This document shows, in pieces, positions 4,488 to 53,228 of a stretch of 64,000 nucleotides of DNA. Both the position numbers and the translations under genes were made by a program. The stretch comes from a phage. Positions within the stretch are counted from its first letter, which is position 1. Each line of letters starts with the position of its first letter. A model generated the notes under the pieces. It saw only the letters and a list, made by a program, of their open reading frames with translations, made no database searches and had not been told where the DNA came from. Where the stretch lies: the sequence record PZ386967.1; one strand, given 5' to 3'.

Positions 4488-4801
4488 GACAATACTCCTT
4501 TCAGAGCTAAAACGGAAAGCACACCAATAATCAACCATGTCGGGATAATTGGCTTGCAGTTCATGTGGGTTTCTCCACCTTCGATGTTCGGGCTTCCTTG
4601 TATAAGAACGTGTTCACAGGAAGCTCTGAACGTCATTACACAGCCCATCAACACAATTGGCCTGATATAATAACCCGTTTTAGTTTGCTTCACGATACAT
4701 GGAGAGGAGAAGCGCAGATATGGATCCCCTTTCCGGTAGCCTGTGATTGTGACCTTCTGCACTTCAGAAGGCACTTTTTGGCCAGGAAAATAAATTTTCA
4801 T
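4484..4801 (-). CDS. hypothetical protein with C-terminal transmembrane helix
   Basis: 105-aa ORF, ATG start, ATGA coupling on both sides; hydrophobic C-terminus. Confidence 0.45.
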
Positions 4802-5754: not shown

Positions 5755-5774
5755 AAAAGCCCCTCACGGGGCTT
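5755..5774 (-). terminator. rho-independent terminator hairpin
   Basis: GC hairpin AGCCCC-TCAC-GGGGCT followed by a U-run on the minus strand, just after the 5764..6066 gene. Confidence 0.45.
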
Positions 5775-6066
5775 GATCGTCTTCATCAGGGAATATACGC
5801 CATCGACCTATTCCATACCACTCACCGATAGAGTTCCATGTCCTTTCCCCAGGCCAGCCGCCGACCGAGTAGTAATGCGTCACCAGCCGCCAGTAAGGAA
5901 GAGAGGCCGTGTTCACGCCGCCGTCGGCCTTTAGGCAGGCCAAGTACCAATTCGTGAGACTGAACGCCTGAAATAACGGATGAAGGAACATGAAGTACAG
6001 GTAGCCCAATATGGCTGTGAATACCCCAGCTGTTACGATCACACCGATGACAGTGAATACAATCAT
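5764..6066 (-). CDS. small membrane protein
   Basis: 100-aa ORF; ATG overlaps the dexA-like stop (ATGA); long hydrophobic segments. Confidence 0.45.
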   Translation of the reverse strand: MIVFTVIGVIVTAGVFTAILGYLYFMFLHPLFQAFSLTNWYLACLKADGGVNTASLPYWRLVTHYYSVGGWPGERTWNSIGEWYGIGRWRIFPDEDDQAP

Positions 6067-6695
6067 CCCACAACCTCCAGACCCATCAGATCTTCCATGG
6101 TCTTCTGAATACGCAGCCAGTCAAGCGCAGCGTCATAACGAGGGTCATGATAGACCATACCTTCCAGTTCCCACGCCTTGATACCAGCATACCGATCCTG
6201 CTGTCCAACACCCTTCAGCCAACTCACGATGTCGAAGGTGTGGTGGTAGTCCCAAGGCTCGTTGGAGTCCTGCTTACATGTCACCTCAATGATGTGCTGA
6301 GCCTTGCGCAGATCAAACAGGTTGCGATCACACCAGTCGACCGAGCGCGGGTCTACCCCAAGACGATGACAACCCTTGCGGATTTCATCGGCCAATTGGA
6401 AGATAGAGATGTCATCTTCCTTGGGGTACAGACTGACTGCGCGAGCCGCATCACACGGGTTACGTTTACCCGCCCCCAACCACCATTCTACCGTCCCAGC
6501 GTCCTTCACGCGACCAAGTTCGAGCTGCTCTTTGACATTCAGCTTAATGAACGTCGTGCGCTCCTCAACCAGCTGCTGAAGAGTATAACGCTTGGTCAGG
6601 TCGGCGATGGTGTGCGCCCAAGACAGCATGACTGCATCATCCCAGCGCCCCAAGGTTTCACTGTCGGCCACAGCCAAAAAATTTGATTTATACAT
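6063..6695 (-). CDS. dexA: DnaQ-like 3'-5' exonuclease (DexA-like)
   Basis: N-terminal FLAVADSETLG (DxE exonuclease motif I); TVEWW and other segments resemble recalled T4 DexA. Confidence 0.6.
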   Translation of the reverse strand: MYKSNFLAVADSETLGRWDDAVMLSWAHTIADLTKRYTLQQLVEERTTFIKLNVKEQLELGRVKDAGTVEWWLGAGKRNPCDAARAVSLYPKEDDISIFQLADEIRKGCHRLGVDPRSVDWCDRNLFDLRKAQHIIEVTCKQDSNEPWDYHHTFDIVSWLKGVGQQDRYAGIKAWELEGMVYHDPRYDAALDWLRIQKTMEDLMGLEVVG

Positions 6696-6939
6696 GTTTA
6701 TTCTCCCAACACTTTATTTTGGCTTTTACTGTATAATAATTTTCATCAATGAACTTTTTGTTGACGCGCTTAATTTCTATCTCTGGGCAAAGTAACCCTA
6801 TAGTTTCCCTCAAAATCTGGCTCACCCTGGCCTGTGAAATACAATAAATTTCTGATACTTCTTTCGAACTAGTTCCAGACATGACAAGTTTTAGAATATT
6901 GACCTTTTTATAAAATTCTTGATCAAACGCACATATCAT
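6688..6939 (-). CDS. small HTH protein (sigma-70 region-4-like)
   Basis: 83 aa; SSKEVSEIYCISQARVSQILRETIGLL resembles sigma region 4 / LuxR HTH; sits in a strongly AT-rich stretch. Confidence 0.45.
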   Translation of the reverse strand: MICAFDQEFYKKVNILKLVMSGTSSKEVSEIYCISQARVSQILRETIGLLCPEIEIKRVNKKFIDENYYTVKAKIKCWENKHV

Positions 6940-6942
6940 TAT

Positions 6943-7542
6943 TCACCCCTCCTCGTCGATGATTTCTTGCTCATCTTCGACAATCATGATACCTTCTGCG
7001 TCCAGATGAGAAAGTTCCATCAGATCATTATCGAATCCGTCTCCTTCCCTGATATAGAAGACTGGGACGACACGACGGCGGGTCTCTTCATACACGCTTT
7101 CAGAGATTCGATTGATATGGCGTACTACACTGTAGAGGTTCAGGCCACCAATACCACAGCCGATAGCAGGCAGGCCGACATAGACAGTTTCGTCTTTAGT
7201 TGCTTCCACAATTTCATGCACCTGCTCAAACAGGGTCTGAACAGAACTGATGACAGACGGCATGCGAGCGTTCGGGCCTGGATAAAACTGAGTGTAGAGG
7301 TTCGCGCCCCAAACGCCCTTGCTGTGGTCAAATGCATAGGACATACCACCCAGGCGTTGCTCTGGACCACGAGGGTCGTTCGCATCGACTTCGCGCAGCG
7401 CTGGGAAGTTGTTGCCGATGTGCAGAGCAATGCCCGCACCCATGGTAGACCAGCAGTTGGCACCGTGGGCAAAGATGTCGATCAGATTGAAGCTACAGGC
7501 GGCTTTCAGTAGATCGCCGCCATTGATTACATATGTGGTCAT
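6943..7542 (-). CDS. macro-domain protein (ADP-ribose binding/processing)
   Basis: YVINGGDLLKA...FAHGANCWSTMGAGIAL resembles the macro-domain Gly-rich ADP-ribose-binding motif; start moved to ATG 7542 with GGAGA SD. Confidence 0.6.
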   Translation of the reverse strand: MTTYVINGGDLLKAACSFNLIDIFAHGANCWSTMGAGIALHIGNNFPALREVDANDPRGPEQRLGGMSYAFDHSKGVWGANLYTQFYPGPNARMPSVISSVQTLFEQVHEIVEATKDETVYVGLPAIGCGIGGLNLYSVVRHINRISESVYEETRRRVVPVFYIREGDGFDNDLMELSHLDAEGIMIVEDEQEIIDEEG

Positions 7543-7781
7543 GCGTACTGTCTCCATTCAATAATGCTGTTGTCAACACATGACACTTGGATGATGCCTG
7601 TGCGGTGGTGATAATCAGTCATCTGCATGATAAAGTTGTTCCCATTGCGGATAATGGTGTTGACAACGATACCCTTGGCAGCAAGGCGTATTACAATGGC
7701 AGTGCAAAGACGGTCCATGTAACCGGACACAGAACCTGGTTCGAAGCATCGCTCGAACAGATTTTCAAATTCTGGGCTCAT
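7539..7781 (-). CDS. hypothetical protein
   Basis: 80-aa ORF with ATG start; its stop overlaps the macro-domain gene start (ATGA). Confidence 0.45.
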   Translation of the reverse strand: MSPEFENLFERCFEPGSVSGYMDRLCTAIVIRLAAKGIVVNTIIRNGNNFIMQMTDYHHRTGIIQVSCVDNSIIEWRQYA

Positions 7782-10229: not shown

Positions 10230-12131
10230 CCTCAGTTTCAAACAGGCAAACATCGCTAAACCAGGTTTTACGGTAATCGGCAGCCTCATCACCGAAGCCA
10301 TTCTTCAGTGACTGTTGGTAGCCATCGTCCAGCGTGACCGTCGTAGTATACGCATCTAGGTTGTTTAGAATACGTTTGAAGTCTTCAGTGCTGTTACCAC
10401 CAAGACCTTTCAGATATTTCTTCTTCGTGATCTTCTTGGCATCAGGCGTCTTCAGGAACTCCTCATACTCGGCGTTGTTCATGAACTCATGCATCACCTT
10501 ACCACACCACACACGCATGTAAGGGGTGCGCAGGAGCTTCAGCCTGCCCTGACGGACATACTCCGGCCAGTAGGTGCAATACAGGGTGATCAACAACCCA
10601 CGGATGTGGATGCCGTCATCGTCCGCATCGGTAGCCACAACAGTCTGTGGGTAACGGGTGATATCAAGGGGCTGGCCTGGCACTGCGCCGCCATGGATCG
10701 TACACAGGTTCTTGAACTCTTCATTGTTCATCACCTTTGAGCGCGGGGCGTTCAGGCAGTTGATGAACTTACCACGAAGCGGGAACAACCCGATCTTCTT
10801 GGTGTCGCGGGCGTTCAGGATAGGATTGGAGGCACTATCACCCTCTGTCAGCAACAGGGAGCATCCGCTGCGGTCACCACGGGCGGTCGCCGGGTAATAC
10901 TTCTCAATCTCACGATAATCCCGCTTGCTGATGTCCTTCTTGGCCTTTTCAAACTCAGCATCATCCTGCTCATTGCGCAGGGAAGCCAGTTCTTTGCTCA
11001 GACCAGCTGTAACGAACTCAAGCGCCTTGCGGATCAGTTTATCACTGGGCTTGTACGACGTACCGAACTGGCTGACAGGAGTGGTCATGCGCTCCTTGGT
11101 CTGGCTGTCAAAGCGCGGGTTGTTGATGTCGGCAGCGATGAACAAGGACATGTGGTTCTTGATCATTGCTGGCTTCAGTTCGGTCTTGAACTTCTTCACC
11201 AGCTGGGGACGAATCGCTGCCACGATCTGGTCAGCAACATAATCAACGTGAGGACCACCGATGTGGGTGGCAATAGAGTTCACGTATGATGCGTGCATGA
11301 ACGTACCGGATGAAGGGGCTACAGCAACAGACCAATCCCCGGTTTCGTCAACAGCCGAACCAGCATGGAAGTAATCAACGAAGTGGCCAAAGCGGTCAAT
11401 CCGGATTTGCTTCCCGTTGAGAACAATCTTCAGGCGCGGGTTACACGCAGCCACTTCAAACGCGCGGCGATAGATCATCAGCAGGTTGTTCTGGTCAAGT
11501 CCTTTGACGCCCAGACGAGCATAGTCAGGGATCCAGGCGATGGATGTGCCAGGACTGTTCACGTTGCTGATGACTGGGTTAGATTTCTTGCTCATGTTGT
11601 CTTCAAACGTCTGAGTATAAGACTTCTTGCCGTCATTAGTCGTGACGCGGAACCATTTGGAGAACACGTTGACGAGGGACGCCCCTTCGCCATTCTGACC
11701 ACCGGACTTCTGGTTGTTGTACTCTTCGTCTTCGTCGTTGAAGTTCGATCCCGCATATAGAGAGCCGAACAACATTTCAGGAAGCCACTCGTTGGTGACG
11801 CCATGCTTGACCACAGGGATACCCCCGTTGTCAGCAACGATGATTTGACCGTTCATCGGGGAAACTGTGACGGTGATTTCCGTCAGGGATTTGCCCTCAG
11901 GGGTCTTGCTGTGTCAACACAGTTGGTGATGATTTCATCAAACTGTTTGATCAGCGCGGGGGAGTACTCAAAGTTGTCACGGAAGATGACTTTGTCCTTA
12001 GTTGGGTCATACACCCACACCGTCCCCACAGACGAACGAATACTGCCCAGATGACGCTCTGGGCGGAGTAGGATATGCTCAACGTGAGTGAGCTTCTTGT
12101 ACTTGCGTTCAATATCAATTTTGTTGGACAT
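10222..12131 (-). CDS. 39: DNA topoisomerase II large subunit (GyrB-like, gp39/gp60-like), interrupted by a frame change near 11886-11913
   Basis: N-terminal ORF 11883..12131 (EHILLRPERHLGS, DEIITNCVDTA = GHKL N-box) and ORF 10222..11856 (ADNGGIP, GEGASLVNVFS, LLTEGDSA Toprim) lie in different frames; the conserved strand KSLTEITVTVSP is readable only in the downstream frame upstream of its first Met. Confidence 0.8.
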
Positions 12132-24084: not shown

Positions 24085-24467
24085 TTGGATTCACCGACGA
24101 GCTGCGCCTTGGTCATCCCAAGGAGTTGATCTTTATGCTCAGGATTGGCACCGTTCTTTAACAACAAATCCCAACGCTCTTCATGGTACTGTGGGTCCAG
24201 TGCTTCATCAAATGTGATGTGGTGGCGGAACATAACAGTTGCCACTGAATGGACACAATGAGCGGTTGCACGCTTCAGAGTATGCTCTGATGTGATGTGC
24301 TTTTGGTATTCAATCCCCATCAAATCCAGTTCTCTGAAAAGACAAGATAATGACAGGACACCCTGCGAATGCAACGCGACGATAGTGTCTTTCTTAGGGT
24401 GCAGCATACCATCTGTTTCTTTCATGAACAGATCATACAGATACTGCTTGTATTCAGACTGTGTCAT
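24081..24467 (-). CDS. hypothetical protein (His-rich)
   Basis: 128-aa ORF; stop overlaps the start of the upstream-numbered gene (ATGA). Confidence 0.45.
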   Translation of the reverse strand: MTQSEYKQYLYDLFMKETDGMLHPKKDTIVALHSQGVLSLSCLFRELDLMGIEYQKHITSEHTLKRATAHCVHSVATVMFRHHITFDEALDPQYHEERWDLLLKNGANPEHKDQLLGMTKAQLVGESK

Positions 24468-24535
24468 TTAGATTCTCCCATGACGAGTAGAGACATATCT
24501 TCAATTCGTTGTATTGCCATGATGTAGATCCTTGC

Positions 24536-26604: not shown

Positions 26605-27518
26605 CCCTTCTTCATCAGGTCAAGGAGAGAGCGCGACGCTGCCTTCGTTGCTTCTGGCTGGGCGCTCGCCTTGGTTTTAGTTTTGGATGCCTTCTGCGGC
26701 TTCTCAGGGACTCTGTGCGCCAAAGGATCCTGGCCGCCGATTTCACGAGTCATCGGATTGGTTTCACAGTAGGCGTAGAAGTCTTTGGTGTCCATGTTAA
26801 CTTCACGCAGTTCGGACCGTATCTGATGACAAATCGCATTACCCACAACCCACAGCGGGGCGTCGTATGGGAGCACCGCCAACTCGGACTGCTGTTTGGT
26901 CGTGAACTCCTGGGTGTTGGTCTCTGGCGCTTTATACAGGATATCCTGTCCGCTGTAATCATCAACAGCCACAGTGAAGCCCAGCGCCAGCATTTCGGCC
27001 TTCGACTTCTCAAACTCCTTGGAGTAAGATTCGTTGCGTGACCAGCCGGAGTTCCCTGCTTCTTTACCAGATCGACCACGGATACGAGCATCGTACTGAT
27101 AGCGGTCGGGGTACGCAAAGTACAGCAGCGCCAATGATTCAATCGGATAGTTCTTGAACATCCATTCAGGACGCCATTTGTCCGACAGCATGAGGGGTTC
27201 ACCCTCACACACCAGAGTGTATCCCTGAACCAACCAGCACTTGATTAGATCACGAGCAATATCGCCTGAGCCTGTAGCAGCATGGATTGCATCCATTGAA
27301 GTCCAGGAAGCCAGGCCGGATTTGTTAGACACGGTGTACTGTCCAACGAAGATTAACTTCAGCTCTCCGAACTTCAGGCCAAACGGGCGAGTCTTGTCAC
27401 CAACGGTGTAGGTCAGTTCGGTAGGCTCCAGCTTCGTACGGAGCCATTCGATGAACTGGACCACTCTCGTACCCTTGCCCGTGGCCGAGGTGCCTTTCAC
27501 TACGATAATTTTTGCCAT
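26601..27518 (-). CDS. P-loop kinase (polynucleotide kinase-like; candidate DNA or nucleotide kinase)
   Basis: N-terminal Walker A KIIVVKGTSATGKGT, similar in layout to T4 Pnk N-terminus (KIILTIGCPGSGKST); 305 aa. Confidence 0.55.
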   Translation of the reverse strand: MAKIIVVKGTSATGKGTRVVQFIEWLRTKLEPTELTYTVGDKTRPFGLKFGELKLIFVGQYTVSNKSGLASWTSMDAIHAATGSGDIARDLIKCWLVQGYTLVCEGEPLMLSDKWRPEWMFKNYPIESLALLYFAYPDRYQYDARIRGRSGKEAGNSGWSRNESYSKEFEKSKAEMLALGFTVAVDDYSGQDILYKAPETNTQEFTTKQQSELAVLPYDAPLWVVGNAICHQIRSELREVNMDTKDFYAYCETNPMTREIGGQDPLAHRVPEKPQKASKTKTKASAQPEATKAASRSLLDLMKKG

Positions 27519-27823
27519 TACACAGCATCCTCAATACGCCAGCTCACGCCGCCCAGCCAAGGTGCCCAGAACACAGCAACCTGCGGACGACCGTTTTCTT
27601 CAAACTTAACTTTATACTGGTCGTCGAAGTTATAGAAGATTTCATCCGATTCAGAGCGCTGGCCGATCTTCACCAGTACATCATGAAGAGCCTTGGCTGC
27701 GCCGATAGGAGTTGGAGTCTCCTGCTGACGAATGAAGTTGTTCACATGGTTAATCACGCCATCCATGTCGCTGTCACCGGAACGCTTGTCTGGGGTTTCC
27801 CCGAACTTATTCTGATCTTGCAC
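27518..27823 (-). CDS. hypothetical protein
   Basis: 101-aa ORF; TAATG junction with the kinase gene. Confidence 0.45.
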   Translation of the reverse strand: MQDQNKFGETPDKRSGDSDMDGVINHVNNFIRQQETPTPIGAAKALHDVLVKIGQRSESDEIFYNFDDQYKVKFEENGRPQVAVFWAPWLGGVSWRIEDAV

Positions 27824-28612: not shown

Positions 28613-28950
28613 TTGTCTTCCTCAACTTTATCGTAGCCTGTAGCAACACACTGTTCTTCGGTACAATCTGCATACAGAACGACGGAGGCCTGCTTCACGT
28701 AGGTGATGCAGTGGTAAGTTTCGTCTTCCTGGATGGAATCGTCATAGTTGCAGACAGTTTGGAGCGGACCCGGAGTAGTGTTGTCCAGTGCTGCATGCGC
28801 CTTGATGGTGTCTTCCATCTTGGACACGGCCTGCTCATTGGTGAACGTCGGCGTGTCAAGGTCTACAGTAGAAGCAACGTCCAGAAGGGTGGAACACGCA
28901 GTGGTAGAGAAAGCCAGAGCACACACCAGAAGAATCTTATTGAGTTTCAT
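28609..28950 (-). CDS. putative secreted protein or lipoprotein
   Basis: Start moved to ATG 28950; signal-peptide-like MKLNKILLVCALAFSTTAC with Cys after the hydrophobic core. Confidence 0.45.
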   Translation of the reverse strand: MKLNKILLVCALAFSTTACSTLLDVASTVDLDTPTFTNEQAVSKMEDTIKAHAALDNTTPGPLQTVCNYDDSIQEDETYHCITYVKQASVVLYADCTEEQCVATGYDKVEEDK

Positions 28951-29012
28951 TTCAATCACCTGTTTGTCAAAGGGTTAACAGGGGGAATTATATCCCCCTT
29001 TGGTTTATTGAA

Positions 29013-32012
29013 TCAACCTTTCTTCTTTTGCATCATGGCAAGAAGGTTCACACGGCGCTTGTGCGACCAGCCGACCACGTCAAGGATGGACTGAATCGGG
29101 TCAATGAAGGACTTCTCAAAGGCCGCCTGATAATCCACCCATTTGCCCAGACCAAGCTCCTCAGGGAAGAACTCAGGATATGCGAAGTAATTCTGGCCGA
29201 ATGGGTTGCCTGGCTTCAACAACACCATCTGTACCTTATCACCCGACTCGATCATCGGTAGACCCAGATCTTCGTTCTTCTCAACCAGACGGTTGTAGCC
29301 CACACACGCCTTGGCAGCAAAATGAGCACCAGAGATGAACGATCCGTCAGCAGCCACACACTTCTCTATGTCGGACACGCCGGAAGCCTTGGCGATATCG
29401 TCTACAGAGAGTTTCATGTACTCCTCTTTGTACTGGGAGATGAGCGCCTGTACTTCCTCTTCAGTGCCGAGTAGGATCTTCTCATAGCACTTGACAAGAC
29501 GCTCACGACACCATTCCGGCGTGGTGGACTTGCGGGCTTCCAGACCTTTGAACTTGATCTTCGGCTTCTCGTACTTGATACCCTCACTGTCGTACACGGC
29601 CATGGCATACATCTTCTTGGCTCGCCAGACAGCGGCTGACGCAATGACCTCACGCTCCCATACCATGCGCTGTTCAAATCCGTTCATGGTGTTACACAGA
29701 AGCTGTGCCCACTCATTGGTCTTCGGCTGGTAGTTGTCTTTGATCCATTGGTCGATATTATCAACCATAGCATGATGGTCAGTAACATCAGGCCACAACT
29801 GCTTGACAAGACGCTCAATGCAGATGTAGTTGGAGTCGGTATCACCTGCGATGACGAAGTCCTGGCCTGTTGTACCACACAGCTTGTTCAGATAGTCATC
29901 AGTGTAACGCTTGTTCCACTTGTTGATCAGCTGACCGGATGTGGTGATGGCTTCGGCAATGTTGAGGTTGAAGTACTCTTTGAACCAGACGTTCGAGATA
30001 GCGCCATAACCTGCGTTCATCAAGATCTTCAGACCTTGCTGTAGGGTGTCTTGAGCAACGCCCAGATCTTCCCACTTCTTCATCACTTCGGTCAGTGCAT
30101 CAAGATCAATGTTCTTGTGCTCTTCATACCACTCTGGGTCATAGTAGCGAGACTTCATGGCAGACTCAAGATGGAAGTCGCCCTTCGACATCTCTTTACA
30201 CCAGCCAGCCCACTGCTCATACTTCAGACCCTTGGCCTTCTCTACTTTACGGTCGCTGTAGATACCACGCATGATTTCAGACAGGAACGACATCTTCTCG
30301 TTGCTGAAGAATTGAACGTTCGGCGTGAACGACACGTTGTAGCGGCGCAGGGTTTCAAAGTGGAACTCACCCAGGGCAACCAACTCATCAACAACCTGCA
30401 GGCGTTCGTCAACCGCACGCAACAGCTTGTCGTGAAGGGCTTTCATCAACCGACGTTTGTGCATCGGCGTTGCCATGTTATTCATCTGAGCAGCCAGCTC
30501 TTCACACATAGCCTCAATAATCTCGCGGCGCTGGTGTTTGTCGCCAACGATAGTCTCTGGACCGAGGTTGTACTGCTGAATGATGTGAGGATACAGGGAA
30601 TTCAAATCTTCCGAGAAGACCCAGAAGTAGATTCCTGGTGTCACATCCATGACGTATGCACCCTCAAAGTCGGTCGGACCATCGTATACACGCTGGATCT
30701 TAGGCACTATCCCCTTCTCGTACAGGCGATAGTAGCACATGGCCAGCCACGGAGCCACAGTTCCCAGACCGTCTTCATAGTTGGACTTGGTGCGGTAGGC
30801 CAGGACGAACATCAGCTGGAGCAGGCGCAGCTTCTGTTCAAGTCGCCATACCAGCTTAACGTCTTTGATACCATATCGGGTGTGTTTGCAGTAGTCGTTG
30901 AAGTACAGATCAAAGAGCGACTTGCTCTCACTGTAGTCCATCTTCTTCTCACCCAGCTCACAATACGCAATCCAGTCAAGAGAGTAGCGTTCACGGGTGG
31001 TGTACGTGTGTTTCTTGTAGATCTGCATATAATCGAGCATAGGACAGCCCACGAACTGATACGTCGTGATATCGCCCTTCTTATCGCGAATGATACGCTT
31101 CTTAATGATACCCCAAGGACTGAGGCGCGACGTTTCAGCCTCACCCAGAACCTGATTCATGCGCTCAACAAGATACGGGCTATCGAACGTTTCAATGTTC
31201 CAGCCTGTCCAGCCGTCGAACTGACGCTCCGACCAGAAGTCAAGGAAAGATCGCAGCAGATCTTGTTCGGTGGTGAACTCCTGATAAACAACCTCAAGGC
31301 CGCCGATCTCTTTGTCTTCGGTGTCGTATGCGAATTTGTTACGATCTTTGGCACAGGGCATACCCCAGACCATGAACTTATTGGTCGCCATATCCTGAAG
31401 CTGGATCAGGGTAATGGGGAACGCCGCATTCATGTCTTGGGTGATCTTGCCGTTGCTGTCAATGATAGGGAACTGATCAGTGACGTTGTTGCTGATGAAA
31501 GAACCAGGGAAGTGCTCACGGACAAAGTCATGGTTGGCCAGCACTTGTTTATGGAAGCGGCGAATGCGCGCCTCATTCCCTTTGAACGTCTGCTGCTCAA
31601 TAGTTGGGTGAGGGAATGGACCTTTGGTCATCTTTCCGTCTTTCCACCCGGCGGAGAATACTTCGATATCGAGGTTAGCAATATGGATGTTGGAGTAATC
31701 CGGCTCAATCTTTCCAGGAAAGCTATGGGCGATGAACTGGTATGCATAATCGGTCTGCCCATAAATGGCAGCACCCTGGACTTCCTTGTACTCTTCAAGA
31801 TAGTTGTCAGCGTCACGCATGGAAGGGAACTGCTTGGCTACCAGGGGTTCATTGAGAAGGCCGACCTTTTCAACATTTGAATAGTCAGCCGTGGGTAAAT
31901 AGAGAGTGGGTTCGAATTTCTTTTTCAACAGACGGCGATTACCCATGTCATCTGCAATTCGAATCAACAGGTCATTGCCCCTGCGGGCAACGTTCGTATA
32001 GAAAACGGTCAT
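29013..32012 (-). CDS. 43: family-B DNA polymerase (T4 gp43-like)
   Basis: N-terminus matches recalled T4 gp43 (YLPT..., QKFPSM[KR]DA); YGDTDS-type polymerase motif AGDTDS; 999 aa; ATG with GGAG SD. Confidence 0.9.
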   Translation of the reverse strand: MTVFYTNVARRGNDLLIRIADDMGNRRLLKKKFEPTLYLPTADYSNVEKVGLLNEPLVAKQFPSMRDADNYLEEYKEVQGAAIYGQTDYAYQFIAHSFPGKIEPDYSNIHIANLDIEVFSAGWKDGKMTKGPFPHPTIEQQTFKGNEARIRRFHKQVLANHDFVREHFPGSFISNNVTDQFPIIDSNGKITQDMNAAFPITLIQLQDMATNKFMVWGMPCAKDRNKFAYDTEDKEIGGLEVVYQEFTTEQDLLRSFLDFWSERQFDGWTGWNIETFDSPYLVERMNQVLGEAETSRLSPWGIIKKRIIRDKKGDITTYQFVGCPMLDYMQIYKKHTYTTRERYSLDWIAYCELGEKKMDYSESKSLFDLYFNDYCKHTRYGIKDVKLVWRLEQKLRLLQLMFVLAYRTKSNYEDGLGTVAPWLAMCYYRLYEKGIVPKIQRVYDGPTDFEGAYVMDVTPGIYFWVFSEDLNSLYPHIIQQYNLGPETIVGDKHQRREIIEAMCEELAAQMNNMATPMHKRRLMKALHDKLLRAVDERLQVVDELVALGEFHFETLRRYNVSFTPNVQFFSNEKMSFLSEIMRGIYSDRKVEKAKGLKYEQWAGWCKEMSKGDFHLESAMKSRYYDPEWYEEHKNIDLDALTEVMKKWEDLGVAQDTLQQGLKILMNAGYGAISNVWFKEYFNLNIAEAITTSGQLINKWNKRYTDDYLNKLCGTTGQDFVIAGDTDSNYICIERLVKQLWPDVTDHHAMVDNIDQWIKDNYQPKTNEWAQLLCNTMNGFEQRMVWEREVIASAAVWRAKKMYAMAVYDSEGIKYEKPKIKFKGLEARKSTTPEWCRERLVKCYEKILLGTEEEVQALISQYKEEYMKLSVDDIAKASGVSDIEKCVAADGSFISGAHFAAKACVGYNRLVEKNEDLGLPMIESGDKVQMVLLKPGNPFGQNYFAYPEFFPEELGLGKWVDYQAAFEKSFIDPIQSILDVVGWSHKRRVNLLAMMQKKKG

Positions 32013-34109: not shown

Positions 34110-34213
34110 CTTCCCGCTTGGCGAGGTCTGGTTTGTACAGGACGCCTCTCGGAAATATTGGAGGAAGGTTTTCATAGATACCCCACACGGATTGTATGGG
34201 GTATTCAGGAGGG

Positions 34214-35477: not shown

Positions 35478-36122
35478 TTACTTCTTGAACAGACGAAGGA
35501 ACTTCATCATGTTATCCATGAAAGTTGGCTTCTTGGCCTTTTGTTTTACTGGAGCACCCTGATCATTCAGAACACGACTGGCCGGAGGAGTTGGATTCAA
35601 AGATTTAATTGCCTGATTCAAATCGGAATTATCCACGACACCCACTTCTTCACCGACCGTAACGCATGGTTTGATTAGAACGGATTTCTTAGACTGCTCA
35701 TACTGATGAGCGATATCCAGATATTTCTTGCGCTCTGCGTAGAAATCAACAGACTTGACCTTGCGACGACGCCAATTGGCGCTTTCTTCGCCATAGAAAT
35801 CATATCCGTTTCTGATCAGCCAGTGTACGGCTTGTTCAAAAGAACCGAAGACCATAAGTGGAGCACCCTGGCCTTTCTCAGATTGTTCCAGGCTACCATA
35901 ACCCATCAATACAACCTGGCCTTTGATACTCAAATCAAACGTCATACCAAGGTTCGGGATGTTTTTATCGCGGCGGAAGAACCCGCCATCACGGTAGACG
36001 TAAACAGGCGACAGGAACTCATTCAGAGTACGCTTGACACCCTTGTATCGGAAGAGTCTGACAATTGGAGGGGTGTCACGGGAAATCACTTCGTTCAATT
36101 CCCAGATAGAAACATTACGCAT
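35478..36122 (-). CDS. hypothetical protein
   Basis: 214-aa ORF, ATG start, basic C-terminus. Confidence 0.45.
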   Translation of the reverse strand: MRNVSIWELNEVISRDTPPIVRLFRYKGVKRTLNEFLSPVYVYRDGGFFRRDKNIPNLGMTFDLSIKGQVVLMGYGSLEQSEKGQGAPLMVFGSFEQAVHWLIRNGYDFYGEESANWRRRKVKSVDFYAERKKYLDIAHQYEQSKKSVLIKPCVTVGEEVGVVDNSDLNQAIKSLNPTPPASRVLNDQGAPVKQKAKKPTFMDNMMKFLRLFKK

Positions 36123-36492: not shown

Positions 36493-36581
36493 TGGCGGAA
36501 GGTGAAGGATTCGAACCTTCGGGGGCTAAAAGCCCCACTCGATTAGCAGTCGAGTCCCTTAAACCTCTCGGGCAACCTTCC
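36493..36581 (-). tRNA. tRNA-Ser (anticodon GCU)
   Basis: Hand-folded cloverleaf: acceptor GGAAGGT/ACCTTCC, anticodon loop CTGCTAA, long variable arm, T-loop GGTTCGAATCC, encoded CCA. Confidence 0.8.
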
Positions 36582-36801
36582 AATTTGGACGGGCTTCACA
36601 CCCGATTGAGCATTTGATCTGCTGTAGCCCAACTCCCCGCGCTTCTCAGCGCCGATTGGTTAACTGGCGACCAGTGCCTTCTGGTTCGATCTCCTGGAAC
36701 TTTACAGGCTTTGCGCCCGACCATTTCTGGAAGTTGGGGCATCGTTTCCGATGTGGAGTCACCCCATTTTATACACAGCTGGCTGCAACGCTTACTGTGT
36801 T

Positions 36802-36886
36802 TGGTGTGAGTGGATGGATTCGAACCACCGCGCTGTTACGGGGAGATTTACAGTCTCCTGCATTCGACCGCTCTGCCACACTCACA
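36802..36886 (-). tRNA. tRNA-Tyr (anticodon GUA)
   Basis: Acceptor GTGAGTG/CACTCAC, anticodon stem GGAGA/TCTCC with loop CTGTAAA, long variable arm, T-loop TTCGAAT, encoded CCA. Confidence 0.75.
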
Positions 36887-37142
36887 TTTGGTCTGCCGCT
36901 GCGTGCTGGGCCACGCTCGAGGACATCGGCCATCCTTCCTCAGCTAATCCACGCAGCGGTAGATTTGTATCAGAGTGTCCGGTGTAGCAACCCGTGAGGT
37001 GCGCACTACTGTAGCCTCTACACTCTGAATTTGGTGGGCGTTACTATCGTCGTCTTCGGATTCCGTTCGGCTATTGGACAGAGGCTTGGAGCTTGTCGGT
37101 CGCGTACTTTATGCCTATTCACTTTCGTTCACACCCATTGTC

Positions 37143-37218
37143 TGGCGACGATGGCAGGACTTGAACCTGCGACATACGGTTTAACAGACCGCCGTTCTAC
37201 CGACTGAACTACATCGTC
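37143..37218 (-). tRNA. tRNA-Asn (anticodon GUU)
   Basis: Acceptor GACGATG/CATCGTC, anticodon loop CTGTTAA, T-arm CAGG-TTCAAGT-CCTG, encoded CCA. Confidence 0.8.
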
Positions 37219-37389
37219 TTGCAAATCACTATACCATATAAAGTTTATTGAACAAACATTTATTTTACAACAAACTGTATTGGCGGGGTCTGAGGCTTTT
37301 CACCTCACCTGCTGGGTTTGGCCGCCCAGCCGTTCTCTATGAGGATTCACTGTCCGGACAGCTATCCATTAAACTATCGCCCCTCAATA

Positions 37390-37466
37390 TGGTGATCCTG
37401 ATTGGGTTTGAACCAATGACCAATGAATTATGAGTTCACTGCTCTAACCGACTGAGCTACAGGACC
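37390..37466 (-). tRNA. tRNA-Met (anticodon CAU; initiator, elongator or Ile2 not resolved)
   Basis: Acceptor GGTCCTG/CAGGATC, D-arm TAGCTCAGTCGGTTAGAGCA, anticodon loop CTCATAA, T-loop GGTTCAAACCC, encoded CCA. Confidence 0.8.
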
Positions 37467-43045: not shown

Positions 43046-44236
43046 ATGGCCGATTTTCTGAGTCGATACACAGGTCAGCAGATTGATGCAATCCTTTCTT
43101 CTGTTGACGATAAAATAAGCAAGACTGATGTTGTCAACGATTTCGCTGTTGATGATCCGTTGTTCCCTCCTTCAGCTCATTTGACATACGAGCTGAAGCG
43201 TTCTGTGGATAAAATCTACGACACACTGGAAAACAAAGTGATCCGCACCGACGGTGGTGAACAAACGATCAACGGGAACAAGACCTTTGCTGCGTTATTG
43301 ACAGCCAACGGCGGCCTGACTGTTCCGGCTGGGAAGAAACTGTCTATCGCGGATGAGCCTATAGTAGCGACAGATGGTGTTAACCTGAGCATGTTGAGAA
43401 AGCATGGTGTCAGTGAAGACACTACCCCGCCTGGTTCTGGTTTGGCTGGGGAGTTGTTGACATCCGGATATTACAAATTCAATTTGGATTTCACCAGATT
43501 GTCTGCGTATACCGGATCAACGTTGCCGACTTCAATTCCAGTACAAACAGATTCTGGAGCGCGTTATTGGACAATGACTGCATTTTTTGATGCGTTGTTC
43601 GCAGACAACCGATTTAATGGATATGTGACAACGACAGCGTATGACGCAGATATGCTGAGTCTAGAGTCCCAGATTAATAACATCAACACATCGTTGAACG
43701 GGAAAGTCAACACATCGACTTACAACACTAAGATGGCGTCGTTGGATTTGAGTATCTCCAATATCAATACGTCTCTGGGTAATAAAGTCGAGGTCAGCAC
43801 GTACAACACGAAGATGACATCTCTGGATAACAGCATCAGTTCTCTTTCCAGTGATAAAGTTAATGTATCAACGTATAATGCCAAGATGACCTCTGTCGAC
43901 AATAGTTTAGGGAACGCCGTTTATCGTACCAAAACGAATTTGTCTTCTTACACGGTTTCGGCTTCTGGGACGACGGCTCTTCCAGATTTTGATTTGGTGA
44001 ACCTTTGTCAAATACTGGTGACCGCGCAATGGGGAACAGGTAACGTTGTTGATACATATCGAGTAACCATAACTCGCGACGGAACTATCAAATCGGAGTT
44101 GTTGGTTCAGAAAAGTACGAGCGGTACAGTGACGTTCACAGGGGCTGTGGTGGGTGGTAAATTGAGAATTTCCGTTGTTAATGCGAATACAACAACTGCT
44201 TGTTCGGTCGATTATTCTATTGTAGCTTCTTTCTAA
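43046..44236 (+). CDS. tail-fibre-like protein with tandem ~25-aa repeats
   Basis: Three to four tandem repeats of the form VxxSTYNTKMxSLDxSIS...; start 2 nt after the previous stop. Confidence 0.5.
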   Translation: MADFLSRYTGQQIDAILSSVDDKISKTDVVNDFAVDDPLFPPSAHLTYELKRSVDKIYDTLENKVIRTDGGEQTINGNKTFAALLTANGGLTVPAGKKLSIADEPIVATDGVNLSMLRKHGVSEDTTPPGSGLAGELLTSGYYKFNLDFTRLSAYTGSTLPTSIPVQTDSGARYWTMTAFFDALFADNRFNGYVTTTAYDADMLSLESQINNINTSLNGKVNTSTYNTKMASLDLSISNINTSLGNKVEVSTYNTKMTSLDNSISSLSSDKVNVSTYNAKMTSVDNSLGNAVYRTKTNLSSYTVSASGTTALPDFDLVNLCQILVTAQWGTGNVVDTYRVTITRDGTIKSELLVQKSTSGTVTFTGAVVGGKLRISVVNANTTTACSVDYSIVASF

Positions 44237-44243
44237 AGTGAAA

Positions 44244-44283
44244 ACTAAATACCCCTAGATGAAACGAACACATTTAGGGGTAT
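44244..44283 (+). promoter_or_regulatory. late-promoter-like motif ACTAAATAC plus 5' leader hairpin
   Basis: CTAAATA core, then inverted repeat ATACCCCTA / TAGGGGTAT whose 3' arm holds the only G-rich SD-like sequence before ATG 44289. Confidence 0.45.
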
Positions 44284-44288
44284 TTGAA

Positions 44289-47200
44289 ATGGCTAATAAA
44301 CCAACACAGCCTGTTTTCCCTCTCGGTCTGGTGGCTGAAGAGCAGTCTACTTTGGCTGGTGTCGTCAACACGGGTACGATTGAGCATGGACCAGATGCTG
44401 TCCTGACTTTACCCGAGGGTAATGCCAGCGCAGGACTCCCGTCTTCCGTTCGCTACAATGCCGACTCCGACGAATTTGAGGGCTTCTATGAAAATGGTGG
44501 ATGGTTGCCGCTGGGTGGCGGTGGTATCCGCTGGGAAGTCCTTCCGCATGCCTCTACGGTAATGCTCACTGAAGGGCGAGGCTATCTCATTAATAATACC
44601 ACAGGGGCATCTACAGTGGTTCTCCCTTCCCCTACGCGTATTGGGGATTCCGTTACTATTTGTGATGCTTATGGGAAATTTGCCACTTACCCATTGACCG
44701 TGTCTCCTTCTGGAAATAATTTGTATGGCTCCACTGAAGACATGGCTATAACAACTGATAACGTATCAGCAACGTTCACTTGGTCTGGACCTGAACAAGG
44801 TTGGATTATTACATCCGGCGTCGGTCTTGGCCAAGGCCGTGTCTACAGTCGTGAAATCTTTACAAAAATTTTGGCGTCTGAAACAAGTACTGTCACTCTC
44901 AATACTCCACCAACAATCGTGGACGTGTATGCTGACGGAAAACGCCTTGCGGAATCCAAATATTCACTAGATGGGAATGTAATCACTTTCAGTCCTTCTT
45001 TGCCAGCCAGCACAGAACTTCAGGTGATTGAATATACTCCTATTCAATTGGGTAATGGCGGTGGTTCTAGTTCTTCTACGATTACTTGGGTCTATAATGG
45101 GGGTTCAGCGATTGGCGGTGAAACCGAAATCACGTTGGACGTCGTTGTTGATGATGTTCCGGCCATTGATATAAACGGAAGTCGTCAGTATAAAAATCTG
45201 GGATTCACATTCGATCCATTAACCAGTAAAATCACTCTGGCGCAAGAACTGGAACCAGAAGATGAAGTTGTTGTAATCATCAATGGAACACCAAACATCT
45301 ATAATCAAATTGATCATACTTTGCGGGAAGTGGCTCGTGTAACCAATGTTAAAGATACAGAGGTCGTTTATTTTAGTGTTGGTGCTGTGCTAAGCGGGTA
45401 TAAAGTTATCTATGATAAAGTAACACAGAGATCATATTTTATTCCAGAGCTACCGACTGGAACCACGGCAGTCAGCCTTAGTTCTTCGGCTGTACTTGTG
45501 CATTCTGCTGGTAGTGTTGATCTGGGCGCATTAGCCGTATCTCGTGAGGAGTATGTGACCTTACCTGGTTCATTCGATACAGGTGTAACTGTTAATACCA
45601 AGAATGAGTTGGTTGTGAGTAACGATATTAAATATCGTTGGGATGGTTCTGTACCCAAAGTAGTCCCTCCAGAATCTACCCCATTGGGTACAGGAGGTGT
45701 TGGTCCAGGGGCATGGCTTGTAGTTGGTGTTGTTGGATTAGAGCAACGTTTAGCCTCCTGGAAAGGTTCTTCTCTTATTGATTCCGGTAGTCTGTCTCTT
45801 TACAAAAAGAGCGGTGTATTCGGTGATGGTGGGAATGTATCCGATAAATATCAGGTTGTTCTACATTCAGATGGGTTCTGGTACAAGTACAATGGGACAC
45901 TACCTGTTAGTTATGGTGCTGCCCCAGACTCTTCTTGGACTAACGTTGGTAAGCTAACAGGGTTTAATGAACACTCACCTGAGAATTTTGGTGCAATCCC
46001 CAATGACCCTAGTTTTGACTGTTTACCTGCTATAAAACTAGCTATAGCCACAGGTACATTAAATCTGAATGGGAATTCTACCTACCACGTAACGGATGAG
46101 GTTGTTATACCTTCTTACTTACGTGGGAATCTAAACGGGGCAACAATTAAAGCAATTGGCTCCGTATGGCCTACGTTAAAAGCTGTTGTACGCGTTAGTA
46201 AATTTCCTGTCGGTACAGCAACAGTGGATGTGGCTAATACAGAGAATCAAGTGCGAGGATTACGCTTAATCGGTAGCTTAAACGTAGACTGTGCAGATAT
46301 TGCATCATATGGTTTTTATGCACGTCTTCTGTGTGCAGAATCTGAGATGGGTAGCATCTATGCATATAATGCTAATAGATATGGCATTGTAATGTTTGCT
46401 TGCTGGTATTTTCAAATGGGCACTCTCCATGCAAACAACTGTGCAAGGGGTATGGCATTAGGTTATTCAACAGAAGGTGAGCAAGGGGATACCTATGTGA
46501 ATGCTACACACTTCCCTCACATTAGTGCATGGGGTACTGATAAGTCTACGGGACTAGGTTATGACCCAATCACGGATGATGCGAGTAAATATACAATAGG
46601 TGCTGGTATTATCTTAGGTCGTGGTTTGTCTACCAGTGTTGGTGTGATTTGCTCTGAGAATACGGCAGGTGCTGGGGTAGTAACAATGGACCCTGCTGCG
46701 TGGGACATTGGGGTCATGTACTGTGAGGGTAATAGTAAAGACTTTACTCAAGAGGGTGAACCCAAGGTGTCATTGCTGTCATCCAAGGCCAACAGTGAAA
46801 GTCATACGCTTACCATCTCCACACTCCACCTTTCCGCAGGTTGTGGCATTTTAACCAGAAGCAATCAAGAGCGTGTGCTAATCAGAAGTCTATATCGCTT
46901 TGATAACGCAAAAACCTTCCACTCTTACTGCACAGCAGACACAGTAGAGGTTGGTAGCAGCAACTACTATGTACTTAACGGGCATAATTACAATGCACCT
47001 GCTGCACTTATTAAGGAACCGCTCAATGTAGACTTTGTGCGTTCAGGGTTGACTTTAAGTGAGTGGACATCTACAGTTATCGGTCATTTTGCTGGTAGTA
47101 CAGCAGAACAACAGCTTTATGTTAAGCTCCCAGCAAGTCCCAGCGGCCTAGATTTACAGATAGATAGTGAGGATGGGACGGAATATATCACTGTAACTGG

Positions 47201-47342
47201 TACAGATTTTAAAGTCTCTCTAACTAAGAAAAGATTGCCTAGTAAACTGTATGAGATAAGGATTGGTGGGGTGTCTACAGTAGCTGTTACCGATTGTTCT
47301 ATTCTAGTCAGAAGTAAAAAAGGTGATTGGTATTACTGGTAG
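44289..47342 (+). CDS. tailspike protein with N-terminal adaptor region and internal conserved anchor module (TSP4-like)
   Basis: 1017 aa from ATG 44289; internal about 150-aa module (VVYFSVGAVLSGYKVIYDK...HSAGSVDLGALAVSREEYVTLPGSFDTGVTVNTKNELVV...) shared with three downstream genes; Asn/Gly-rich C-terminal half consistent with a beta-helix. Confidence 0.65.
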   Translation: MANKPTQPVFPLGLVAEEQSTLAGVVNTGTIEHGPDAVLTLPEGNASAGLPSSVRYNADSDEFEGFYENGGWLPLGGGGIRWEVLPHASTVMLTEGRGYLINNTTGASTVVLPSPTRIGDSVTICDAYGKFATYPLTVSPSGNNLYGSTEDMAITTDNVSATFTWSGPEQGWIITSGVGLGQGRVYSREIFTKILASETSTVTLNTPPTIVDVYADGKRLAESKYSLDGNVITFSPSLPASTELQVIEYTPIQLGNGGGSSSSTITWVYNGGSAIGGETEITLDVVVDDVPAIDINGSRQYKNLGFTFDPLTSKITLAQELEPEDEVVVIINGTPNIYNQIDHTLREVARVTNVKDTEVVYFSVGAVLSGYKVIYDKVTQRSYFIPELPTGTTAVSLSSSAVLVHSAGSVDLGALAVSREEYVTLPGSFDTGVTVNTKNELVVSNDIKYRWDGSVPKVVPPESTPLGTGGVGPGAWLVVGVVGLEQRLASWKGSSLIDSGSLSLYKKSGVFGDGGNVSDKYQVVLHSDGFWYKYNGTLPVSYGAAPDSSWTNVGKLTGFNEHSPENFGAIPNDPSFDCLPAIKLAIATGTLNLNGNSTYHVTDEVVIPSYLRGNLNGATIKAIGSVWPTLKAVVRVSKFPVGTATVDVANTENQVRGLRLIGSLNVDCADIASYGFYARLLCAESEMGSIYAYNANRYGIVMFACWYFQMGTLHANNCARGMALGYSTEGEQGDTYVNATHFPHISAWGTDKSTGLGYDPITDDASKYTIGAGIILGRGLSTSVGVICSENTAGAGVVTMDPAAWDIGVMYCEGNSKDFTQEGEPKVSLLSSKANSESHTLTISTLHLSAGCGILTRSNQERVLIRSLYRFDNAKTFHSYCTADTVEVGSSNYYVLNGHNYNAPAALIKEPLNVDFVRSGLTLSEWTSTVIGHFAGSTAEQQLYVKLPASPSGLDLQIDSEDGTEYITVTGTDFKVSLTKKRLPSKLYEIRIGGVSTVAVTDCSILVRSKKGDWYYW

Positions 47343-47350
47343 TATAATAA

Positions 47351-47380
47351 AAAGCCCCCAATTTTGGGGGCTTTTATTAT
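47351..47380 (+). terminator. rho-independent terminator
   Basis: Hairpin AAAGCCCCC-AATTTT-GGGGGCTTT followed by a T-run. Confidence 0.6.
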
Positions 47381-47414
47381 ATAGAGTTTACTGTTTTCAT
47401 TACCCTGATTGATA
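47374..47414 (+). repeat. about 40-nt intergenic repeat, copy 1
   Basis: TATATAGAGTTTACTGTTTTCATTACCCTGATTGATA; near-identical copy at 55206..55246. Confidence 0.6.
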
Positions 47415-47597
47415 ATGCTGTTGGCTCTCTCGGGTTGTCATCAAACGGGTATAAGAACTTTATAGGTGATATCAATGATGGGTCAGCGTATTTTTATTTC
47501 ACCAACATAGATGGATCAAGAATATCGGGGTCGTCTGTTTATGATGGGTGGGGTGATGTTGGTATACATTTTGAAATGTGTCTGGAATAGGAGTGTC

Positions 47598-47696
47598 AAA
47601 CCCCGCTTTGGCGGGGTTCTTATTATACCTTTGTTCATAAATTTGATTAGTTCAGACTAAATACTCCATATTGGTCATCCTTTATGGGGTATTATC
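47598..47696 (+). repeat. duplicated tailspike upstream cassette, copy 1 (hairpin, late-promoter-like motif, leader hairpin)
   Basis: About 85% identical by eye to 50575..50675; includes GACTAAATAC at 47655-47664 and leader hairpin ATACTCCATA / TATGGGGTAT at 47661-47692. Confidence 0.6.
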
Positions 47697-53180: not shown

Positions 53181-53184
53181 AACT

Positions 53185-53210
53185 AACCCCGCTTCGGCGG
53201 GGTTTCTTAG
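53185..53210 (+). terminator. terminator-like hairpin
   Basis: Hairpin AACCCCGC-TTCG-GCGGGGTT followed by TTCTTAG. Confidence 0.45.
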
Positions 53211-53228
53211 AAAAACAAAGAGGTCGTT

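What the first reader, a model, noticed from the sequence alone, without database searches (positions are those of the whole stretch)
6688..6939. AT-rich island encoding a small sigma-region-4-like HTH protein
The 6700-6940 interval is much more AT-rich than its flanks and encodes an 83-aa protein whose C-terminus resembles sigma-70 region 4.2. Small sigma-like or sigma-mimicking proteins in phages act as transcriptional appropriators or anti-sigma factors. The composition shift suggests horizontal acquisition.
Basis: partly seen in the sequence, partly recalled or inferred. Interest (0 to 1): 0.4.

Follow-up and report, generated by a model that had tools for sequence, protein, structure and literature searches.

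The report
Rare swapped-in small HTH gene
A 247-base AT-rich gene cassette in an Ackermannviridae (Agtrevirus-like) phage encodes an 83-residue helix-turn-helix protein of the sigma-region-4/LuxR type; it is real, clearly foreign and rare among relatives, but it is an ordinary kind of accessory phage gene whose function is untested.

Summary
ORF 6688-6939 (minus strand, 83 aa) has 32.5% GC against 48% for the window. It is the lowest 252-bp stretch in the 64 kb and ties for lowest in the whole genome of its 97%-identical relative, phage AV101.

The island is a gene-precise 247-bp cassette (6696-6942) between the Tk.4 macro-domain gene and dexA. Only 4 of 265 related phage records carry it. Others have nothing there, or an unrelated 114-126 aa ORF. 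The cassette is 97.6-99.6% identical across genera whose flanks fall to 55-85%, so it spread recently by recombination.

It is not a sigma factor, because it has no region 2. The most likely role is a small stand-alone DNA-binding regulator made with early genes. A region-4 mimic that binds RNA polymerase, and a remnant of a homing-endonuclease DNA-binding module, remain possible. New member of a known kind; low to moderate interest.

The parts
6688..6939 (-). 83-aa ORF (stop included), the only gene of the AT-rich island
   Evidence: ORF list. Intact in six alleles: window, AV101, 4HA11, KE31, SilasIsHot and an IMG/VR contig. Annotated as a hypothetical protein in AV101.
6696..6942 (.). 247-bp cassette that is absent from 'empty' relatives, in which the dexA start codon abuts the Tk.4 stop codon
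   Evidence: Annotation and alignment of AV101 and KE31 against ZQ1 and fGh-Ecl02.
6796..6906 (-). Residues 12-48: helix-turn-helix of the sigma-70 region 4 / LuxR-GerE type, with recognition helix SQARVSQILRE
6691..6795 (-). Residues 49-83: C-terminal extension predicted as two helices, with no detectable relatives
   Evidence: AF2 model has helices at 61-66 and 68-82. No family or homologue covers this part.
6946..6954 (-). Shine-Dalgarno sequence GAGGAGGGG, 6 nt upstream of the ATG, lying in the last codons of Tk.4
   Evidence: Read from the sequence. The same SD serves dexA in empty alleles.
6688..6695 (-). 8-nt overlap ATGTATAA: the stop of the HTH gene lies inside dexA codons 2-3, suggesting translational coupling. 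A new dexA SD (GGGAG, 6703-6707) lies inside the HTH gene
   Evidence: Sequence and ORF coordinates.
6063..6695 (-). dexA exonuclease gene, the downstream neighbour
   Evidence: Annotation of AV101 and relatives.
6943..7557 (-). Tk.4 macro-domain-like gene, the upstream neighbour
   Evidence: Annotation. Weak Pfam Macro hit.
6550..7150 (.). Tract that is 98% identical to Kuttervirus SilasIsHot, set inside flanks of 75-84% identity: the footprint of recent recombinational transfer
   Evidence: Identity in 50-bp bins.
5757..5774 (-). Terminator-like hairpin that probably ends the transcription unit containing the cassette
   Evidence: Consensus scan. A pattern match only.

Best explanation
The AT-rich island is a horizontally acquired single-gene cassette. 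It sits exactly between the Tk.4 stop codon and the dexA start codon of an Agtrevirus-like Ackermannviridae phage. It has no promoter of its own. It is read from the early Tk.4-dexA transcript, uses the strong ribosome-binding site that serves dexA in cassette-less phages, and passes ribosomes on to dexA through an 8-nt stop/start overlap.

Its product is an 83-residue stand-alone tetrahelical helix-turn-helix domain of the sigma-region-4/LuxR-GerE class, followed by a unique two-helix tail. The most likely role is a small sequence-specific DNA-binding transcription regulator, probably a dimer formed through the tail, as in GerE. It would modulate some host or phage promoters early in infection. 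It is dispensable, since about 98% of relatives lack it.

Shown here: the gene, its composition, the cassette boundaries, its rarity, the recent transfer between genera, and the class of the fold. Inferred: DNA binding, dimerisation, regulatory role and timing of expression.
For: Gene and foreign origin:
- ORF and composition.
- Gene-precise 247-bp indel.
- Present in only 4 of 265 records that carry the dexA-Tk.4 region, plus one IMG/VR contig and one protein cluster among 5.8 billion sequences.
- The cassette differs by 1-6 of 252 nt between alleles. SilasIsHot's flanks fall to 75-84% identity outside ~6550-7150.
- No promoter- or terminator-like site inside the cassette and no Rfam match.

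Fold and family:
- AF2 best model has pLDDT 87. An independent BFVD model of the same protein superposes at TM 0.97.
- Sigma region 4 is the best hit in three profile libraries.
- The closest non-self relative, P0004, is the region 4 ORF of a split bacterial sigma factor.

DNA binding:
- Alignment with RpoD and FliA keeps the recognition-helix Arg and Gln (R38, Q41) that correspond to sigma-70 R586 and Q589.
- By my residue count the net charge is about +4.
Against: - No profile match reaches a curated cutoff, and no Foldseek PDB hit has E below 0.3.
- Four of the five AF2 models were poor, with pLDDT 34-58.
- No target site, operator-like repeat or own promoter was found.
- The alleles vary too little (about 9 substitutions) to test purifying selection.
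- DNA binding itself is untested.
- An isolated region-4-like domain could equally bind the RNA polymerase beta flap.
Confidence: 0.55

Rival explanations
1. Sigma-region-4 mimic or decoy. The stand-alone region-4-like domain would dock on the RNA polymerase beta-flap tip, or on partners of region 4. It would compete with host sigma-70 region 4 and so redirect or inhibit host transcription without needing to bind DNA.
For: The best profile and sequence relatives are sigma region 4 rather than LuxR. The fold superposes on SigF, SigA and FliA region 4. There is precedent in T4-type phages: gp33 binds the beta flap and is described as a sigma-4 mimic (PMC2988020), and AsiA/MotA remodel region 4 (PMC6755090). 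From my own knowledge, T4 srd and srh are small sigma-like genes near dexA/dda (Mosig et al. 1998).
Against: The relative AV101 already encodes gp33 and gp55. The region 4.1 'RE' motif is replaced by KK, while the DNA-contacting Arg and Gln are kept. The gene is missing from ~98% of relatives, so it cannot be part of the core transcription programme. There is no binding evidence at all.
Confidence: 0.15
2. The protein is the DNA-binding module left over from, or borrowed from, a free-standing homing endonuclease. The cassette would have spread, or still spreads, by homing-like gene conversion, and the HTH protein itself has little or no present function for the phage.
For: The pattern fits: a rare, AT-rich presence/absence gene between conserved genes, near-identical across genera, with a short high-identity conversion tract. 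The HTH is 41% identical over 39 aa to the C-terminal HTH of a LAGLIDADG endonuclease in Streptomyces phage Sollertia. Homing nucleases are variable in Agtrevirus (PMC10791037), and AV101 carries a SegD-like gene that the window lacks.
Against: There is no nuclease domain or motif hit in Pfam, PHROGs, NCBIfam or PADLOC. The protein shows no similarity to AV101's SegD-like protein. No larger occupant related to this ORF exists at the site in any record. The dexA 5' codons next to the cassette are the common family form, not a cassette-specific recoding. The ORF is intact, with a strong SD, in all six alleles. Ordinary homologous recombination explains the tract.
Confidence: 0.12
3. The ORF is not expressed as a functional protein. 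The island would be junk or a non-coding regulatory insertion that happens to be open.
For: The family is an ORFan. 1.5% of shuffles of the 252 bases are also stop-free. Variation is too low to show selection.
Against: The ORF fills the insertion to within 3 nt at one end and overlaps the dexA ATG at the other. It has a GAGGAGGGG SD at the correct spacing. It gives a confident HTH fold in two independent predictions and has significant similarity to a genuine sigma region 4. No promoter, terminator or Rfam element lies inside it.
Confidence: 0.05

Closest known systems
GerE (Bacillus subtilis) and other stand-alone LuxR/FixJ-type tetrahelical HTH domains
   Different: The Pfam score of 16.4 is below the 23.5 cutoff. 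Sequence identity is 10-20%. The C-terminal 35 residues are unique. The gene is phage-borne. DNA binding and dimerisation were not tested.
Sigma-70 family region 4 (4.1 + 4.2), especially FliA/ECF-type
   Same: It is the best match in Pfam, NCBIfam and PHROGs. The protein is 58% identical over 38 aa to the region 4 ORF of a bacterial sigma factor. The recognition helix reads S-x-x-R-V-S-Q-I/L, as in FliA. The fold superposes on SigF, FliA and SigA region 4.
   Different: There is no region 2 or 3, so it is not a sigma factor. All scores fall below the cutoffs. It carries an extra C-terminal tail. Binding to the beta flap is unknown.
Small phage proteins annotated as 'RNA polymerase sigma-70 region 4' only (for example the 74-aa protein of Enterococcus phage EfV12-phi1 and 78-aa proteins of uncultured Caudovirales, both in BFVD)
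   Same: Same size class and same predicted fold, in phages.
   Different: Foldseek E-values are only 0.1-0.2. No sequence similarity was detectable by tblastn or phmmer. Their functions are also untested.
T4 gp33 (sigma-4 mimic) and AsiA/MotA sigma appropriation
   Same: Small early or middle proteins of T4-type phages that act at the beta-flap/region 4 interface (PMC2988020, PMC6755090).
   Different: No sequence or fold relationship was found. gp33 has no HTH and does not bind DNA. The relative AV101 encodes its own gp33 and gp55 elsewhere in the genome.
Modular gene shuffling in the hyperplastic regions of T4-type phages (PeSL cassettes) and free-standing homing-endonuclease genes
   Same: Non-essential ORFan genes inserted, deleted or replaced between conserved genes and exchanged among related phages (PMC2839356, PMC4122927). 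Here one junction holds nothing, an unrelated 114-126 aa ORF, an 84-bp spacer, or this cassette.
   Different: No promoter-plus-stem-loop motifs bound the cassette. It has no nuclease domain. Its boundaries coincide with the stop and start codons of the neighbouring genes.

Membership tests
Pfam Sigma70_r4 (PF04545) | Score at or above the gathering threshold (24.1 bits) | tested here: not met
   16.6 bits, E 0.0055, residues 24-47. It is the best Pfam hit but is below threshold.
Sigma-70 family sigma factor (TIGR02937 / functional sigma) | Region 2 (core binding, -10 recognition) together with region 4, and a score at or above 42.9 bits | tested here: not met
   The protein has 83 aa. Only model positions 124-159 of 165 are matched, at 22.5 bits. 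There is no Sigma70_r2 hit.
LuxR/GerE family (PF00196) | Score at or above the gathering threshold (23.5 bits) | tested here: not met
   16.4 bits, E 0.0069.
Tetrahelical HTH fold (LuxR/GerE/sigma region 4 structural class) | A three-helix HTH core plus a packing helix that superposes on solved members | tested here: met
Sequence-specific DNA-binding regulator | Binds a defined operator and changes transcription | not testable with these tools
   The only indirect support is that R38 and Q41 are retained in the recognition helix.
Sigma mimic / anti-sigma / appropriator | Binds the RNA polymerase beta flap or sigma region 4 | not testable with these tools
   No homology to AsiA, gp33, Rsd or FlgM appeared in any search.
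Free-standing homing endonuclease gene | A nuclease domain (GIY-YIG, HNH, LAGLIDADG, PD-(D/E)xK) | tested here: not met
   No such hit in Pfam, PHROGs, NCBIfam or PADLOC. No similarity to AV101's SegD-like protein.
Free-standing homing endonuclease gene | Sporadic presence between conserved genes, with co-converted flanks | tested here: met
   Found in 4 of 265 records. A 98%-identity tract at 6550-7150 lies inside 75-84% flanks in SilasIsHot. This pattern is also expected from ordinary recombination.
PeSL-bounded T4-type cassette | A sigma-70 promoter plus a terminator stem-loop at the module borders | tested here: not met
   No promoter- or terminator-like site on the coding strand within or next to 6688-6942.
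Known anti-phage defence or counter-defence proteins (PADLOC) | A match to a PADLOC model | tested here: not met
   0 families at E up to 10.

The most novel reading that the evidence does not exclude
The protein would be a free sigma-4 module. It would dock on the RNA polymerase beta-flap tip in place of host sigma-70 region 4, or alongside the phage's region-4-less gp55, and bring its own -35-type DNA recognition. That would be sigma appropriation by domain substitution. The module would travel as a self-contained, translationally coupled cassette that spreads between Ackermannviridae genera.
Probability: 0.1. Interest if true: 0.6.

Novelty: new member of a known kind. Interest (0 to 1): 0.25.

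Why it matters
If the protein regulates transcription, it is a recently mobile accessory switch that a few E. coli and Salmonella Ackermannviridae carry. These phages are candidates for therapy and biocontrol, and the gene could affect host takeover or competition between phages. The locus is also a clean natural example of gene-precise cassette swapping at a stop/start junction, with the recombination footprint still visible. If the protein instead acts as a free sigma-4 domain on RNA polymerase, that would be a new variation on phage sigma appropriation. As things stand, it is a well-delimited but functionally untested small HTH ORFan.

Tried and rejected
- Homing-endonuclease immunity recoding. 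The first nine dexA codons differ by eight synonymous changes between the window and the empty alleles ZQ1 and fGh-Ecl02, which looked like target-site recoding. Cba120, P46FS4, T751 and CRW-SP2 all carry the same 'ATGTATAAATC...' form without the cassette. The ZQ1-type empty allele is therefore the odd one, and I dropped the idea.
- Donor search. I looked in 5.8 billion proteins, 1.84 billion representatives, phage records by tblastn and IMG/VR. Only near-identical copies and generic HTH matches turned up, so no donor lineage was found.
- PDB sequence search: nothing meaningful.
- Rfam on 6400-7200: nothing.
- Promoter and terminator scan: nothing inside the cassette.
- PADLOC: nothing.
- Selection test (dN/dS): not possible, with only about 6 synonymous and 3 non-synonymous differences among six alleles.
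- Multi-HTH repeat proteins P0002, P0003 and P0005. They match because they contain several generic region-4-like HTH repeats, and they say nothing about function.
- The alternative occupant of the site (the Cba120 orf022 family) is unrelated to the 83-aa protein and has no Pfam match.

Full report
**What the window is**

The region around the finding is 96-97% identical to Escherichia phages AV101 and vB_EcoA_4HA11, and it matches some 200 other Ackermannviridae at 60-97%. The window is colinear with AV101 except for a few indels and the tail-spike cluster. All genes from about 10300 down to 4800 lie on the minus strand. They are T4-type early and DNA-metabolism genes: the topoisomerase subunit, Arn.3, Tk.4, dexA and a phosphatase.

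**Check of the observation**

An ATG-started ORF of 83 codons occupies exactly 6688-6939 on the minus strand.

- Its GC is 32.5%. The dexA and Tk.4 genes on either side have 54.2% and 52.0%, and the window has 48.3%.
- Only 0.1% of 252-bp windows are as low, and the lowest window in the 64 kb overlaps it.
- GC at third codon positions is 0.33, against 0.53-0.63 in nine neighbouring genes.

To test that, I assembled the full AV101 genome.

- There the gene lies 3.5 sd below the mean.
- It ties for the lowest 252-bp window of 156.8 kb.
- It sits in the top ~1% by tetranucleotide distance.

The composition anomaly is therefore real at genome scale.

A stop-free run across the whole island occurs in 1.5% of shuffles. 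That figure is modest on its own, but other evidence supports coding:

- The ORF starts 3 nt after the Tk.4 stop codon.
- It is preceded by GAGGAGGGG at a spacing of 6 nt.
- It ends in ATGTATAA, so its stop codon lies inside dexA codons 2-3.
- It is intact in all six known alleles.
- No promoter-like, terminator-like or Rfam element lies inside it.

**What the island is: a rare gene cassette**

In AV101, 4HA11, KE31 and SilasIsHot the ORF sits between Tk.4 and dexA. In ZQ1, fGh-Ecl02 and many others the dexA start codon directly abuts the Tk.4 stop codon. The difference is a 247-bp block, window 6696-6942, whose ends fall within 1-3 nt of the neighbouring gene boundaries.

Of 265 phage records that match the dexA-Tk.4 region, only these four cover the cassette, and tblastn with the protein finds the same four. 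One IMG/VR contig of 154 kb also carries it. So does a single protein cluster among 5.8 billion sequences.

The same junction holds other things elsewhere in the family:

- Most Kuttervirus (for example Cba120 orf022), Agtrevirus P46FS4 and Taipeivirus T751 carry an unrelated 114-126 aa ORF of normal GC. It has no Pfam match and is probably the older occupant.
- CRW-SP2 has an 84-bp spacer.

**Evidence for recent transfer**

The cassette differs by only 1-6 of 252 nt among phages of different genera. Against SilasIsHot, window 6550-7149 is 588/600 identical (98%). The adjoining dexA sequence is 84% identical and the adjoining Tk.4 sequence 75%. This is a recombination tract centred on the cassette. 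KE31 has the cassette next to a 200-bp patch of Tk.4 that is only 63% identical, which is a further mosaic.

I first read the eight synonymous differences in dexA codons 2-10 between the window and the empty alleles as homing-endonuclease target recoding. The 'ATGTATAAATC' form turned out to be the common one across the family, with or without the cassette, so I withdrew that argument.

No donor lineage was found. The low GC3 says only that the gene evolved in a more AT-rich genome.

**The protein**

Profile searches agree on the type of match but not on its significance.

| Library | Best match | E-value | Score vs cutoff |
|---|---|---|---|
| Pfam | Sigma70_r4 | 0.0055 | 16.6 vs 24.1 bits |
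| Pfam | GerE | 0.0069 | 16.4 vs 23.5 bits |
| Pfam | HTH_28 | 0.0077 | 16.7 vs 25 bits |
| NCBIfam | TIGR02937, sigma-70 family (region 4 end of the model) | 7e-5 | 22.5 vs 42.9 bits |
| PHROGs | a sigma-factor family | 0.002 | no curated cutoff |

All matches cover residues ~12-48.

An exhaustive phmmer search of 1.84 billion representatives found four proteins besides the protein's own cluster.

- The closest, P0004, is 58% identical over 38 residues. It is a clear Sigma70_r4 member. In its bacterial contig it is the second ORF of a split sigma factor, sitting just downstream of a Sigma70_r2 ORF.
- The other three are long proteins made of repeated generic HTH units.

Aligned with E. coli RpoD and FliA region 4, the protein keeps the Glu of the first HTH helix and the Arg and Gln of the recognition helix. 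These are R38 and Q41, equivalent to sigma-70 R586 and Q589. The helix reads SQARVSQIL, close to FliA's ESRVSQLH.

Among phage records, the best non-self match is the C-terminal HTH of a 155-aa LAGLIDADG endonuclease in Streptomyces phage Sollertia, at 41% over 39 aa.

**Predicted structure**

A single-sequence AF2 run gave one confident model, with pLDDT 87 and helices at 4-20, 25-32, 36-50, 61-66 and 68-82. The other four models were poor. The BFVD library holds an independent prediction of the 98%-identical protein that superposes at TM 0.97, so the fold is reproducible.

- Foldseek against the PDB gives no significant E-value. It superposes the HTH core on VpsT, NarL, DosR, ComA, SigF and SigA region 4 at 0.9-2.2 A over 38-47 residues.

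The protein is therefore a stand-alone tetrahelical HTH of the LuxR/GerE/sigma-region-4 class with a unique C-terminal tail. It is not a sigma factor, because it has no region 2. No nuclease or defence-related domain was found.

**How it most likely works**

Stand-alone domains of this class, GerE being the textbook case, bind DNA as dimers and activate or repress promoters. That is established knowledge rather than something tested here. The kept DNA-contact residues, the mildly basic composition and a helical tail that could mediate dimerisation fit this picture.

The gene has no promoter of its own. It borrows the ribosome-binding site that serves dexA in empty phages and supplies a new one (GGGAG) for dexA inside its own 3' end. 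It should therefore be made together with the early Tk.4-dexA genes.

I put 0.55 on 'small DNA-binding transcription regulator, accessory and dispensable'. The rivals are:

- **A region-4 mimic or decoy acting on the beta flap (0.15).** There is precedent in gp33 and AsiA (PMC2988020, PMC6755090). Against it, the relative AV101 already has gp33 and gp55, and nothing here shows binding.
- **A leftover homing-endonuclease DNA-binding module on a formerly or currently selfish cassette (0.12).** The sporadic distribution, the conversion tract and the LAGLIDADG-HTH similarity favour it. The absence of any nuclease domain, and of any larger relative at the site, counts against it.
- **A non-functional ORF (0.05).**

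**Comparison with what is known, and verdict**

The AV101 paper notes that several genes vary among Agtrevirus and are all annotated as hypothetical (PMC10791037). This gene is one of those and has no published function. Small phage proteins annotated as consisting only of sigma-70 region 4 exist in other phages. Cassette swapping between conserved genes is well described in T4-type phages (PMC2839356, PMC4122927), although this cassette lacks the PeSL promoter/stem-loop borders.

The finding is a correct observation of a foreign, recently mobile accessory gene. The 'sigma region 4-like' label is a reasonable resemblance but not a demonstrated family membership. The anti-sigma or appropriator function remains speculation.

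Novelty: new member of a known kind. Interest: 0.25.

Noticed in passing
window 6693-6945 (the Tk.4|dexA junction); loci L009 789-1133, L010 796-1176, L011 797-1141, L012 795-878: The same gene junction is a swap site across Ackermannviridae. It can be empty, hold an unrelated 114-126 aa ORF of normal GC (the Cba120 orf022 family, which has no Pfam match), hold an 84-bp spacer (CRW-SP2), or hold the HTH cassette.
   Followed up: partly
L004 (Salmonella phage KE31), equivalent to window 6950-7150: Right next to the cassette, KE31 has a 200-bp patch at the 3' end of Tk.4 that is only ~63% identical to the window, while both sides of the patch are 96-100% identical. One extra C also makes the annotated Tk.4 run 17 nt into the HTH gene.
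   Followed up: partly
window ~43300-55340: An 11-kb block of low GC (40-44%) is the tail-spike gene cluster. No phage record covers more than 34% of 44000-57000. Only scattered short pieces, totalling about a third of the block, match AV101 at 78-93% identity. This phage therefore appears to carry receptor-binding domains not in the phage collection.
   Followed up: partly
window 27516-27519 and 10224: Compared with AV101, the window lacks the SegD-like homing-endonuclease gene (AV101 10586-11272). It also lacks a 447-bp ORF that lies between the two topoisomerase genes in AV101 (28776-29222).
   Followed up: no
window 4488-4772, 24277-24517, 34141-34144, 35594-35745: Further short replacement or deletion patches relative to AV101 in an otherwise 94-98% identical alignment. 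These are probably other small accessory-gene swaps.
   Followed up: no
window 36493-37466 (minus strand): A cluster of four tRNA genes (Ser-GCT, Tyr-GTA, Asn-GTT, Met-CAT), as in AV101.
   Followed up: no
L013 4565-5195: The closest non-self relative of the HTH (P0004) is the region 4 half of a bacterial sigma factor. That factor is called as two ORFs, region 2 and region 4, separated by ~150 bp. It is either a split or frameshifted sigma gene or an assembly error.
   Followed up: no
L007 1171-1638 (Streptomyces phage Sollertia gp128): A 155-aa single-LAGLIDADG-domain protein carries a C-terminal HTH that is 41% identical over 39 aa to the HTH studied here. This shows that this HTH type also serves as a homing-endonuclease DNA-binding module.
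   Followed up: partly
window 5757-5774 (minus strand): A GC-rich hairpin followed by a T-run lies just after ORF 5764-6066. It probably ends the Arn.3-Tk.4-HTH-dexA transcription unit.
   Followed up: no
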